A DNA stretch of 13,667 nt, taken from a virus. Its lineage: Duplodnaviria; Heunggongvirae; Uroviricota; Caudoviricetes. The notes beneath the pieces were generated by a model. It worked only from the letters and a program-made list of their open reading frames with translations, had not been told where the DNA came from and made no database searches. Positions 12,080 through 13,230 of this stretch are shown in pieces (positions within the stretch are counted from its first letter, which is position 1; every line of letters begins with the position of its first letter). The stretch spans positions 1 through 13,667 of IMG/VR virus record IMGVR_UViG_3300028988_000007, one strand, 5' to 3'. The translations under genes were made by a program, and so were the position numbers.

Positions 12080-13039
12080 TTAATTTACCATCAGTCTTAG
12101 AGCCAGTTCGTCCGGATAGGGATCGAAGTAATTCTGTGTAAGCAAGTAGTCATTAGGATACTCACCCAGATAATGCTTCAGCAGAGTCAACGGCGCAAGA
12201 AGAGGTAATGTGCCAGAACGATAGTTAAGTATAACCTCGCTCAACTCTTTACGCTGGCGTGTACTTAAGTAGTTACTAAAATACCCCTGTATATGCATCA
12301 GCACATTCGTGTGATTTTTACGTGATGCAGGTTTTCTGAGAATCGCCATCAGCTTATCACGATACACCTCAAAGTATGATTCAAGGTCCGCCCACTCGTG
12401 TATTGCAGCCACAAATGGTCCCATATCTTTATAGCCTGCCTGACTATGCGCCAACAACTGAAGCTTATAACGACTATGAAAAGCTAATAACTCTCTTCTT
12501 GATAATTTCTCCTTGTAAAGGTGATTGAGCTCATGCAAAGCAAAAACTCTTTCAACAAAATTCTCACGAAGCACTGGATCATGTAATCGCCCATCCTCTT
12601 CAATCGGTAGCCAGGAAAACTTTTCCATCAAAGTGCTCGTAAATAGTCCCACTCCATCTTTACGACCTCGATTACCATTTTCATCATAGACACGCACGCG
12701 CTCCATGCCACAGCTGGGAGATTTAGCACAAACCACAAACCCCGATACATCCTTTAATTTGTCCATATAAGAACGACTAAACTCTGTCATTCTCTCTGTC
12801 ACATCCTCATTCTGGTCGTGGCTGAAACACATCCGTATATTTCCTTGCGTCGAGCGCACAAGACGTAGAGCAGGACGCGGAACTGGCAGCCCTATAGCCA
12901 TTTCCGGACATACTGGTCTGAATGTTACCCATTCCACTAATTTGTCCATTAAAAAGTCAGCTCTTTTGTGACCACCATCAAAACGAACAGCAGAACCGGC
13001 CAAACAACCGCTGATTCCAATCACAGGTTTTTTTATCAT
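12080..13039 (-). CDS. DUF523/DUF1722 two-domain protein (YbgA-like; N-terminal TudS-like putative Fe-S domain)
   Basis: 319-aa ORF MIKKPVIGISGCLAGSAVRFDGGHKRADF...; the GISGCL...VRFDGGHKR motif and downstream Cys residues match the DUF523 (thiouracil-desulfidase-like) fold, and the C-terminal half resembles DUF1722 as in E. coli YbgA; AT-rich codon usage. Confidence 0.75.
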   Translation of the reverse strand: MIKKPVIGISGCLAGSAVRFDGGHKRADFLMDKLVEWVTFRPVCPEMAIGLPVPRPALRLVRSTQGNIRMCFSHDQNEDVTERMTEFSRSYMDKLKDVSGFVVCAKSPSCGMERVRVYDENGNRGRKDGVGLFTSTLMEKFSWLPIEEDGRLHDPVLRENFVERVFALHELNHLYKEKLSRRELLAFHSRYKLQLLAHSQAGYKDMGPFVAAIHEWADLESYFEVYRDKLMAILRKPASRKNHTNVLMHIQGYFSNYLSTRQRKELSEVILNYRSGTLPLLAPLTLLKHYLGEYPNDYLLTQNYFDPYPDELALRLMVN

Positions 13040-13230
13040 ATTCTCCCCTTGACTAATTCATTAACACATAAACTGTGTAGTGCACGGAATAAATTGCCTT
13101 TCTGGCGTCATCACTGACAATTTTTCTGTTATGGACTATTCCTAATATAGTATGAAAGTTCTTTAAGTGATCGGTCGTAATCATCTATCTTTCATACTTA
13201 CTCTCAACTATCAAAAGTACAGGATTTATT

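What the first reader, a model, noticed from the sequence alone, without database searches (positions are those of the whole stretch)
12080..13230. DUF523/DUF1722 (TudS/YbgA-like) protein divergently paired with the lipocalin in a phage-adjacent island
DUF523 proteins are known as [4Fe-4S] thiouracil desulfidases (TudS) and DUF1722 is of unknown function; the chromosomal E. coli homolog ybgA sits next to the photolyase gene. Finding a divergent two-domain paralog, with its own roughly 190-nt divergent promoter region shared with a lipocalin gene, inside an AT-rich horizontally acquired block is unexplained. It could act on modified or thiolated nucleobases, which would be relevant to phage-host conflict, but that is speculation.
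Basis: inference. Interest (0 to 1): 0.45.

Follow-up and report, generated by a model that had tools for sequence, protein, structure and literature searches.

The report
Prophage-borne RudS tRNA 4-thiouridine desulfidase
The gene is an intact copy of RudS, an iron-sulfur enzyme already shown to strip the light-sensitive 4-thiouridine mark from tRNA, carried with a lipocalin gene as a fixed cargo cassette of lambda-like E. coli prophages, so it is a known enzyme in a known kind of place.

Summary
The ORF is real: 12080-13039 (-), 319 aa, 2-thiouracil desulfurase/DUF523 domain plus DUF1722. A 191-nt gap separates it from a divergent lipocalin gene.

It is not an unexplained paralog. This fusion is RudS, a [4Fe-4S] tRNA 4-thiouridine (s4U) desulfidase (Jamontas et al., NAR 2024). 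That paper tested RudS_vir, gp66 of Escherichia phage 1H12. It is 93% identical to the window protein and sits in the same cassette.

All catalytic residues are present: Cys12/44/110, Glu46, Arg55, Ser107/109. The AlphaFold model (pLDDT 95.7) matches TudS.

It is not the E. coli ybgA ortholog, which is DUF1722-only and 49% identical.

The block is not phage-adjacent. It occupies the Q-to-holin cargo slot inside a lambdoid prophage. The order Q, lipocalin(-), RudS(+), YdeO-like AraC(+), holin held in all 80 viral contigs read. The gene is in 1136 of 5426 complete E. coli genomes.

The lipocalin pairing is inherited. In 43 of 64 enterobacterial loci an ~80%-identical lipocalin lies divergently upstream of MerR-RudS.

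In this window both neighbours are dead: ISEc52 truncates the lipocalin and the AraC gene is frameshifted.

Verdict: already known, low interest. No phage-host conflict role was found.

The parts
12080..13039 (-). rudS: intact 319-aa TudS(DUF523)-DUF1722 fusion, a [4Fe-4S] tRNA 4-thiouridine desulfidase. Key residues: Cys12, Cys44, Cys110, Glu46, Arg55, Ser107, Ser109.
   Evidence: Pfam. 93.1% identical to phage 1H12 gp66 (RudS_vir) and 99.4% to phage IdasGreatGrand. Residue conservation. AF2 pLDDT 95.7 and Foldseek match to TudS 6z96/6z92. dN/dS 0.11 against the 1H12 allele.
13040..13230 (.). 191-nt divergent intergenic region between rudS and the lipocalin gene. Presumed promoters for both genes; function not shown.
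   Evidence: 97% mean column identity among four phage/prophage copies. Spacing identical in 80/80 viral contigs. The consensus promoter scan is no better than shuffles. Not alignable as a whole to chromosomal counterparts.
13075..13085 (+). GTGTAGTGCAC motif, 35 nt upstream of the rudS start codon. The same 10-mer occurs once in nearly every lipocalin-bearing chromosomal locus, about 33 nt upstream of the lipocalin start. Possible operator remnant (inference).
   Evidence: Local alignment z of 2-3, p of about 0.01, found post hoc.
13231..13572 (+). 5' fragment (codons 1-114 of 174) of a Blc-like outer-membrane lipocalin lipoprotein (lipobox LIAC). Truncated, so probably non-functional here.
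   Evidence: Pfam Lipocalin_2 profile positions 2-78 of 146. The intact allele matches NCBIfam Blc at 316 bits and is 60% identical to K-12 Blc. Identical to the intact allele up to 13572.
13573..13667 (+). Terminal 95 nt of an IS3-family element, ISEc52, inserted into the lipocalin gene. Its first bases, TGA, create the stop codon.
   Evidence: 100% identity over 95 nt to annotated ISEc52 copies. Junction located.
10999..11728 (-). YdeO/GadX-like AraC-family regulator gene (PsrA/PatE type of prophage regulator), the third gene of the cassette. A pseudogene here, with two 1-nt deletions near 11612 and 11349.
   Evidence: Pfam HTH_18/HTH_AraC on the C-terminal fragment. The intact 243-aa version has its best NCBIfam hit to YdeO. 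Frameshifts mapped against intact WP_001146309. Annotated as frameshifted in relatives.
10916..10937 (-). Terminator-like GC hairpin plus T-run between the cassette and the holin gene.
   Evidence: Pattern match only; 2 sites found against 1.7 expected.
10595..10810 (-). Holin essD. It marks the downstream boundary of the cargo slot and the start of the lysis cassette (lysozyme 10098-10595, Rz 9640-10113).

Best explanation
The 319-aa protein is a RudS enzyme, a tRNA-modification eraser.

Mechanism:
- The N-terminal TudS domain holds a [4Fe-4S] cluster on Cys12, Cys44 and Cys110.
- The free fourth iron binds the thiocarbonyl sulfur of 4-thiouridine at tRNA position 8.
- Glu46, positioned by Arg55, Ser107 and Ser109, activates water. 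This replaces S with O, giving uridine and sulfide.
- The helical C-terminal DUF1722 domain holds the tRNA by its anticodon arm.

Context (shown here):
- The gene is the middle member of a fixed three-gene cargo cassette: lipocalin, rudS, YdeO-like AraC regulator. The cassette sits between antiterminator Q and the holin of lambdoid E. coli phages.
- rudS points the same way as the late operon. It should therefore be read through after induction, whatever its own promoter does in the lysogen.
- The lipocalin-rudS pair is a piece of a conserved enterobacterial module governed by an MlrA/BluR-type MerR regulator. That module's long form has the same gene content as the Pseudomonas light-inducible LitR cluster. 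The phage carries the pair without the regulator.

Biological role (inferred, not shown): E. coli has no chromosomal RudS, so the prophage gives its host a way to lower tRNA s4U. That should blunt UVA-induced tRNA cross-linking, growth delay and the stringent response.
For: Domains.

Identity to a tested enzyme:
- 93.1% identical over 319 aa to phage 1H12 gp66.
- 1H12 has the same order Q / lipocalin(-) / gp66(+) / AraC-like(+) / holin.
- PMC11417400 Table 1 names H3V29_gp66 as RudS_vir, with Cys12/44/110. Its overexpression lowered tRNA s4U in E. coli, though less than other RudS enzymes.

Catalytic residues:
- Mutating E51, S111, S113 or R60 of RudS_KT abolished activity.
- I equate these with Glu46, Ser107, Ser109 and Arg55 by numbering offset from the Cys ligands listed in the paper.
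- Glu46 and Arg55 are invariant, and the Cys and Ser residues at least 90% conserved, in 63-64 homologs down to 35% identity.

Structure: pLDDT 95.7, and TudS is the only significant PDB match (TM-score normalised to the target 0.72-0.74).

Selection: dN/dS is 0.11 for rudS and 0.065 for the lipocalin between phage alleles.

Cassette constancy: all 80 IMG/VR contigs read have Q+, lipocalin-, RudS+, and 74 also have AraC+ and holin+ (the rest are cut short). Two sequenced temperate phages have the same layout.

Prevalence: 1136 of 5426 complete E. coli genomes.

Origin of the pairing:
- 43 of 64 enterobacterial loci have a lipocalin 69-82% identical (mostly about 80%) upstream. Most are arranged lipocalin(-) MerR(+) RudS(+).
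- In C. sedlakii and Citrobacter sp. JGM124 the lipocalin abuts rudS with no MerR gene. Huaxiibacter also shows no MerR hit, but has about 840 nt between the two genes.
- Raoultella has the lipocalin plus the long operon.
- The operon content matches the Pseudomonas light-inducible cluster of SDR, FAD oxidoreductase and UfaM.

UVA effect: shown for RudS_KT in E. coli (abstract).
Against: - No activity, Fe-S content or expression was measured for this allele.
- RudS_vir was the weakest tRNA desulfidase of the set. It also gave the shortest lag on free 4-thiouracil, so its preferred substrate in vivo is not settled.
- The UVA phenotype was shown only for overexpressed Pseudomonas RudS_KT.
- No promoter is demonstrated in the 191-nt region, and the scan was no better than shuffles.
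- The block is AT-rich, so it may be H-NS-silenced in lysogens (inference).
- In this window both cassette partners are inactivated, so the locus may be decaying.
- tRNA-contact residues of DUF1722 were mapped by numbering offset only, not by alignment to RudS_KT.
Confidence: 0.85

Rival explanations
1. The phage enzyme works mainly as a TudS-like salvage or detoxification enzyme on free 4-thiouracil, 4-thiouridine or 4-thio-UMP, for example recycling s4U released by tRNA turnover. Its tRNA activity would be secondary.
For: In PMC11417400, RudS_vir gave the shortest lag of all RudS variants for a uracil auxotroph growing on 4-thiouracil. It had the lowest tRNA desulfidation despite good soluble expression. 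Stand-alone TudS enzymes recycle 4-thio-UMP (PMC10611767).
Against: No RudS, including RudS_vir, supported growth the way TudS did, and all lowered tRNA s4U. The DUF1722 tRNA-binding domain is fully retained and under purifying selection (dN/dS 0.11). It is highly conserved with the chromosomal RudS proteins.
Confidence: 0.12
2. The gene serves the phage rather than the lysogen. It would be transcribed with the Q-antiterminated late operon after UV or SOS induction. It would then erase s4U so that host tRNAs cannot be UVA-cross-linked, or so that the stringent response is damped, keeping late protein synthesis going. A counter-defence role is a further possibility.
For: rudS is co-oriented with the late genes and lies between Q and the holin in every copy examined. 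The cassette is kept in plaque-forming or induced phages (1H12 and the Lambda_ev series, IdasGreatGrand). Loss of s4U removes the UVA growth delay.
Against: Purely positional inference. Lambdoid cargo genes in this slot (stx, bor-like, PsrA-like regulators) usually benefit the lysogen (established knowledge). The partners are a lipocalin on the opposite strand and an acid-resistance-type regulator, and these look like host-fitness genes. There were no PADLOC hits and no literature link between RudS and phage biology.
Confidence: 0.25
3. In this particular prophage the cassette is decaying, silent cargo. rudS is still an open frame but contributes nothing.
For: The lipocalin is cut by ISEc52 at 13573. 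The AraC-like gene has two frameshifts. The IS separates the cassette from Q and pR' within the window. The region is AT-rich and a likely H-NS target (inference).
Against: rudS is intact and 99-100% identical to copies in many genomes and viral contigs. There is strong purifying selection across alleles. The full 191-nt upstream region is intact.
Confidence: 0.15
4. It is simply the species' ordinary ybgA ortholog in a conserved chromosomal context.
For: RefSeq names it 'YbgA family protein'. It shares the DUF1722 domain.
Against: K-12 ybgA is 169 aa, DUF1722-only and next to phr. It is 49% identical over the C-terminal half only. The window protein scores below the NCBIfam YbgA cut-off. The gene is present in only 21% of genomes, always in prophage context.
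Confidence: 0.01

Closest known systems
RudS_vir (Escherichia phage 1H12 gp66, H3V29_gp66; Jamontas et al., Nucleic Acids Res 2024, PMC11417400)
   Same: 319 aa and 93.1% identical, with the same Cys12/44/110. It sits in the same cassette: Q, lipocalin(-), RudS(+), AraC-like(+), holin. Experimentally it lowers tRNA s4U when overexpressed in E. coli.
   Different: 22 amino-acid differences (dS 0.30 between the alleles). In the window the neighbouring lipocalin and AraC-like genes are inactivated, and the phage backbone differs (P27-type terminase and HK97-type head here).
Chromosomal RudS of Enterobacterales (Salmonella LT2 STM1389/ORF319 as RudS_ST; Citrobacter, Enterobacter and Klebsiella homologs)
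   Same: Same length (319 aa), same domains and same catalytic residues, at 66-76% identity. A divergent lipocalin neighbour occurs in many genera.
   Different: The chromosomal copies sit behind an MlrA/BluR-type MerR regulator, alone or at the end of a 10-gene operon. Their GC is 54-60%, against 43% in the phage. The phage clade branches outside all sampled chromosomal copies and has no regulator gene.
RudS_KT (Pseudomonas putida PP_0741), the biochemically and mutationally characterised reference
   Same: Same TudS-DUF1722 architecture. The catalytic E51/R60/S111/S113 and C17/49/114 all have counterparts here.
   Different: More distant in sequence; I did not measure the identity. It lies in a phrB-litR operon under light control. 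The G1-loop residues Y25/N26 are F20/D21 here (by numbering offset).
TudS (stand-alone DUF523 thiouracil desulfidase, PDB 6Z92/6Z96)
   Same: The fold of residues ~1-160 matches (TM-score normalised to the target 0.72-0.74, 25-26% identity). Same three-Cys [4Fe-4S] site and same Glu.
   Different: TudS has no DUF1722 domain and acts on free thiouracil and 4-thio-UMP. It does not change tRNA s4U in vivo.
E. coli YbgA (b0707)
   Same: DUF1722 domain, 49% identical to residues 164-315.
   Different: No catalytic domain. It is a core-genome gene next to phr and has no effect on tRNA s4U.

Membership tests
RudS (TudS-DUF1722 tRNA s4U desulfidase) | Two-domain architecture: N-terminal DUF523/TudS and C-terminal DUF1722 in one polypeptide | tested here: met
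   Pfam PF04463 at 7-149 (4e-40) and PF08349 at 192-309 (1.9e-40).
RudS (TudS-DUF1722 tRNA s4U desulfidase) | Three conserved Cys ligands of the [4Fe-4S] cluster | tested here: met
   Cys12, Cys44 and Cys110 carry the same numbering as RudS_vir and RudS_ST in Table 1 of PMC11417400. They are invariant among 9 close homologs and at least 90% conserved among 63-64 diverse homologs. Cys12 and Cys44 align to TudS Cys10 and Cys43.
RudS (TudS-DUF1722 tRNA s4U desulfidase) | Catalytic Glu with its stabilising Arg and two Ser residues (RudS_KT E51, R60, S111, S113) | tested here: met
   Glu46 and Arg55 are invariant and Ser107 and Ser109 at least 90% conserved. Mutational basis. Correspondence is by numbering offset from the Cys ligands.
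RudS (TudS-DUF1722 tRNA s4U desulfidase) | TudS-like fold of the catalytic domain | tested here: met
   AF2 pLDDT 95.7, pTM 0.92. Foldseek against PDB gives 6z96/6z93/6zw9/6z92 at probability 1.00 and TM-score (normalised to the target) 0.72-0.74, with no other hit below E 0.1.
RudS (TudS-DUF1722 tRNA s4U desulfidase) | DUF1722 residues that contact the anticodon region (RudS_KT S243, R244) | tested here: inconclusive
   Ser239 and Arg240 lie at the expected offset and are invariant among enterobacterial homologs. I had no RudS_KT sequence to align directly.
RudS (TudS-DUF1722 tRNA s4U desulfidase) | Removes s4U from tRNA | not testable with these tools
   Shown in vivo for the 93%-identical RudS_vir. 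Not measured for this allele.
E. coli YbgA (stand-alone DUF1722, NCBIfam PRK10167) | About 169 aa, DUF1722-only, adjacent to phr, scoring above the family cut-off | tested here: not met
   The window protein is 319 aa with an added catalytic domain. It scores 190.8 bits against a 237-bit cut-off. It is 49% identical. No photolyase lies nearby.
Lambdoid prophage cargo ('moron') in the Q-to-S slot | Lies between the antiterminator Q gene and the holin, has a composition unlike the phage backbone, and is dispensable and variably present among related phages | tested here: met
   Position shown. GC is 31-44% against 54% in the head and terminase genes. The gene is absent from 79% of E. coli genomes. 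An own promoter and terminator are only pattern-level.
Known anti-phage defence or counter-defence systems | Match to a PADLOC defence-protein model | tested here: not met
   No hits for RudS, the lipocalin or the AraC-like protein.

The most novel reading that the evidence does not exclude
The lipocalin-rudS cassette is a portable near-UV protection module that lambdoid phages took from an enterobacterial MerR/LitR-type light regulon, leaving the repressor gene behind. It now runs unregulated or under late-operon control. About one E. coli strain in five would then differ from K-12 in tRNA s4U level, UVA growth delay and ppGpp response. After sunlight-type induction the phage would also erase s4U to keep host translation running for its own late genes. 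That would be a phage-encoded tRNA-modification eraser with a role in the lytic cycle.
Probability: 0.25. Interest if true: 0.5.

Novelty: already known. Interest (0 to 1): 0.2.

Why it matters
The enzyme is not new. The context does add three points worth recording.

1. The RudS literature states that E. coli lacks RudS (PMC11417400). That holds for K-12, but 21% of complete E. coli genomes carry a prophage copy. Strain differences in UVA growth delay and tRNA s4U content should be expected.
2. The previously unremarked lipocalin partner is an ancestral neighbour in an enterobacterial MerR-controlled module. That module is related to the Pseudomonas light-inducible cluster. This links the phage cargo to light and oxidative-stress physiology rather than to phage defence.
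3. RefSeq ('YbgA family protein') and PHROGs ('unknown function') annotations for this family could be updated to RudS.

Tried and rejected
- Ordinary ybgA ortholog: rejected.
- Lipocalin derived from the 175-aa gene upstream of DUF3833 in the Citrobacter operon: rejected. There is no similarity, and that protein is weakly chalcone-isomerase-like.
- Lipocalin as a copy of the host's own blc: rejected. It is 60% identical to K-12 Blc but about 80% identical to the RudS-linked lipocalins.
- Photolyase linkage of the close homologs: none within 6 kb in 64 loci.
- Whole-length homology of the phage 191-nt intergenic region with chromosomal lipocalin-MerR or lipocalin-RudS regions: not found in either orientation. 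Only one 11-mer is shared.
- The 10-nt inverted repeat at 13149-13158 / 13189-13198: the two substitutions in 1H12 are not compensatory, so there is no evidence for a structure.
- Sigma-70 promoter scan: no enrichment over shuffles.
- LexA-box reading of CTGTGTAGTGCACGG: it does not fit CTG-N10-CAG (read by eye).
- Rfam and tRNA scans of the window: nothing.
- PADLOC: nothing.
- Profile search of IMG/VR for distant phage RudS: 140 hits against 126 with the single protein, and the 80 listed were all at least 97% identical to the window protein. Phage carriage is therefore essentially this one E. coli cassette.
It was rerun without that sequence.
- Whether O157 psrA/psrB loci carry this cassette: not resolved. 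No O157:H7 strain appeared among 40 records sampled across the ranking.
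Full report
**The observation**

The window is the late half of a lambdoid prophage, read on the minus strand.
- Tail, head, portal, terminase and HNH genes occupy 1-8790.
- bor/iss lies at 9267-9608 (+).
- The lysis genes follow: Rz at 9640-10113, lysozyme at 10098-10595 and holin essD at 10595-10810.
- Next comes an AT-rich block of 30-45% GC, against 52-59% elsewhere.

The reported ORF is real. It spans 12080-13039 (-), starts with ATG, encodes 319 aa and has a good Shine-Dalgarno sequence. Pfam finds 2-thiour_desulf/DUF523 at residues 7-149 (4e-40) and DUF1722 at 192-309 (1.9e-40). 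A 191-nt gap (13040-13230) separates it from a divergent Lipocalin_2 ORF.

Three corrections apply.
- The lipocalin here is only codons 1-114 of 174. It matches the intact allele exactly up to 13572. An ISEc52 end, 100% identical over 95 nt, begins at 13573 and supplies the stop codon.
- The AraC-family gene on the other side (10999-11728, -) has two 1-nt deletions relative to the intact 243-aa gene.
- The block is not next to a phage. It is inside one.

**What the protein is**

The DUF523-DUF1722 fusion was characterised in 2024 as RudS (Jamontas et al., NAR; PMC11417400).
- The TudS domain carries a [4Fe-4S] cluster on three cysteines and desulfurates 4-thiouridine in tRNA.
- DUF1722 binds the anticodon region.
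- Overexpression in E. coli lowers tRNA s4U 4.7- to 26-fold. Overexpressed RudS_KT also diminishes the UVA growth delay.

One of the enzymes tested was RudS_vir, gp66 of Escherichia phage 1H12, with Cys12/44/110. The window protein is 93.1% identical to gp66 over all 319 residues, and 99.4% identical to a gene of phage IdasGreatGrand.

The residues whose mutation inactivated RudS_KT are E51, R60, S111, S113 and the three Cys. By numbering offset they correspond to Glu46, Arg55, Ser107, Ser109 and Cys12/44/110. Glu46 and Arg55 are invariant in an alignment of 63-64 homologs reaching down to 35% identity. The Cys and Ser residues are at least 90% conserved there.

An AlphaFold2 model built on that alignment has mean pLDDT 95.7. 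Its N-terminal domain matches only TudS structures in the PDB, at probability 1.00 and TM-score (normalised to the target) 0.72-0.74.

I therefore file the protein as a RudS with high confidence. Its activity is inferred from the 93%-identical tested ortholog, not measured. The paper also notes that RudS_vir was the least active on tRNA and gave the shortest lag on free 4-thiouracil. A TudS-like salvage role therefore stays open as a minor rival.

**It is not ybgA**

K-12 ybgA (b0707) is a 169-aa DUF1722-only protein next to phr. It is 49% identical to residues 164-315 of the window protein. The window protein scores below the NCBIfam YbgA cut-off, at 190.8 against 237 bits.

**Where it sits**

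In intact relatives the order is antiterminator Q, lipocalin (opposite strand), rudS, YdeO/GadX-like AraC regulator, holin. This is the cargo slot downstream of the late promoter. Stx phages carry their toxin genes in the same slot (established knowledge).

rudS is co-oriented with the late operon, so Q-modified polymerase should read through it after induction. That step is inferred from gene order.

The cassette is very constant.
- All 80 IMG/VR contigs read show Q+, lipocalin-, RudS+. Of these, 74 also show AraC+ and holin+, and the other six are cut short.
- The lipocalin-rudS spacing is the same in all 80.
- The intergenic region is 97% conserved among four copies.

The gene occurs in 1136 of 5426 complete E. 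coli genomes, at 1-3 copies, and 1188 of 1190 copies are chromosomal. The paper's statement that E. coli lacks RudS therefore holds for K-12 but not for the species.

PHROGs has dedicated families for all three genes, all labelled 'unknown function'. PADLOC has no match.

**Why a lipocalin**

The closest non-E. coli RudS proteins are chromosomal 319-aa proteins of Citrobacter, Enterobacter, Klebsiella, Serratia, Pectobacterium and relatives, at 66-76% identity. I ran tblastn on 64 such loci.
- In 43 loci, a lipocalin 69-82% identical (mostly about 80%) to the phage lipocalin lies upstream on the opposite strand. It is only 60% identical to E. coli's own Blc. Most of these loci are arranged lipocalin(-), MerR-type regulator(+), RudS(+).
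- In Citrobacter sedlakii and Citrobacter sp. JGM124 the lipocalin abuts rudS with no MerR gene, as in the phage. Huaxiibacter also shows no MerR hit, but has about 840 nt between the two genes.
- In 15 loci RudS ends a long operon: MerR, SnoaL, SDR, FAD amine oxidase, DUF1365, cyclopropane/furan-fatty-acid-synthase-like, DUF2878, a chalcone-isomerase-like protein, DUF3833, RudS.
- Raoultella has the lipocalin, the MerR gene, most of that operon and RudS together.

The regulator is a paralog of E. coli MlrA (42% identical) and BluR (37%). The operon content matches the Pseudomonas light-inducible LitR cluster of photolyase, SDR, FAD oxidoreductase and UfaM.

The divergent lipocalin-rudS pair is therefore an inherited piece of a conserved stress module, carried by the phage without its regulator.

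The capture is not recent.
- The phage clade branches outside all sampled chromosomal copies.
- Its GC3 is 40% against 62-73%.
- Both genes are under purifying selection between phage alleles: dN/dS is 0.11 and 0.065 at dS 0.30 and 0.19.

**Regulation is open**

The promoter scan is no better than chance. The phage intergenic region does not align with the chromosomal ones in either orientation.

One element is shared. The 10-mer GTGTAG[T/C]GCA occurs exactly once in nearly every lipocalin-bearing chromosomal locus, about 33 nt upstream of the lipocalin start. It never occurs in loci without the lipocalin. In the phage it sits at 13075-13085, 35 nt upstream of the rudS start, and is thus flipped relative to the lipocalin. 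I found this post hoc and the statistics are weak (p of about 0.01). It may be an operator remnant.

**Role**

Shown: the identity of the enzyme family, the tested activity of a near-identical ortholog, the cassette position, and the origin of the gene pairing.

Inferred: because E. coli has no chromosomal RudS, the prophage copy would lower tRNA s4U. That would blunt UVA-induced s4U8-C13 cross-linking, growth delay and the stringent response.

Whether this benefits the lysogen (my preferred reading, given the host-fitness flavour of the partner genes) or the induced phage cannot be decided here.

In this window the lipocalin and the regulator are both inactivated, and an IS separates the cassette from Q. 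This copy may be on its way to decay, although rudS itself is intact.

**Verdict**

This is a known enzyme family. The phage ortholog has been tested experimentally. The gene sits in a standard prophage cargo position. I found no support for a phage-host conflict function. Novelty: already known. Interest: low. The modest added value lies in the species-level prevalence, the chromosomal origin of the lipocalin pairing, and an annotation fix.

Noticed in passing
window 13573-13667: An ISEc52 (IS3 family) end is inserted inside the lipocalin gene after codon 114. Related genomes carry IS911 or ISEc52 at other points of the same cassette: in the rudS-lipocalin gap in strain GMF054, and between holin and the AraC gene in Ec40743. 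The AT-rich cargo block looks like an IS hotspot.
   Followed up: partly
window 10999-11728 (-): The YdeO/GadX-like AraC regulator of the cassette (PHROG 1450, the same type as the prophage regulators PsrA/PsrB/PatE) is a pseudogene with two single-base deletions near 11612 and 11349. The tblastn match to this gene covered 90% or less of its length in 12 of 80 viral contigs, and it is annotated as frameshifted in RefSeq relatives.
   Followed up: partly
window 13075-13085; loci L022-L078: The motif GTGTAG[T/C]GCA occurs once per lipocalin-bearing enterobacterial locus, about 33 nt upstream of the lipocalin start. In the phage cassette it lies 35 nt upstream of rudS in the flipped orientation. 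It may be an operator of the MlrA/BluR-like regulator that was rearranged in the phage.
   Followed up: partly
window 13149-13158 and 13189-13198: A perfect 10-nt inverted repeat (AGTATGAAAG / CTTTCATACT, 30 nt apart) lies upstream of the lipocalin start. The two differences in phage 1H12 are not compensatory, so if it is functional it is more likely a protein-binding site than an RNA structure.
   Followed up: partly
L006, L009, L015-L025, L065: A conserved enterobacterial operon runs MerR(MlrA-like)-SnoaL-SDR-FAD amine oxidase-DUF1365-CFA/furan-fatty-acid-synthase-like-DUF2878-CHI-like-DUF3833-RudS. Its content matches the Pseudomonas LitR light-inducible cluster. Enterobacter and its relatives keep only lipocalin-MerR-(137-aa ORF)-RudS.
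   Followed up: partly
L016, L021, L032, L011/L012: A second RudS lineage exists in Citrobacter braakii (which has two copies), C. portucalensis, C. murliniae and Salmonella Derby. It lacks the lipocalin, the MerR gene and the operon. In Salmonella Derby it lies between ttcA and a DUF1367 phage-type gene, which suggests another mobile context.
   Followed up: no
L067, L072: Two short contigs of a 'Candidatus Nanosynbacter' MAG (JARKOR01) carry this E. coli prophage cassette at 93-100% identity. This is almost certainly binning contamination.
   Followed up: no
P0002, P0006: Single-member fusion proteins were seen: RudS plus a GGDEF domain (403 aa, E. coli) and DUF3833 plus RudS (500 aa). They are probably frameshift or gene-calling artefacts.
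   Followed up: no
window 10916-10937 (-): A terminator-like hairpin with a T-run lies between the AraC-like pseudogene and the holin. This fits a self-contained cargo unit that only antiterminated polymerase reads through.
   Followed up: no
window 8440-8790 (-), 9267-9608 (+): An HNH endonuclease lies next to a P27-type small terminase. A bor/iss serum-resistance lipoprotein gene sits opposite the lysis genes. Both are standard lambdoid accessory features.
   Followed up: no
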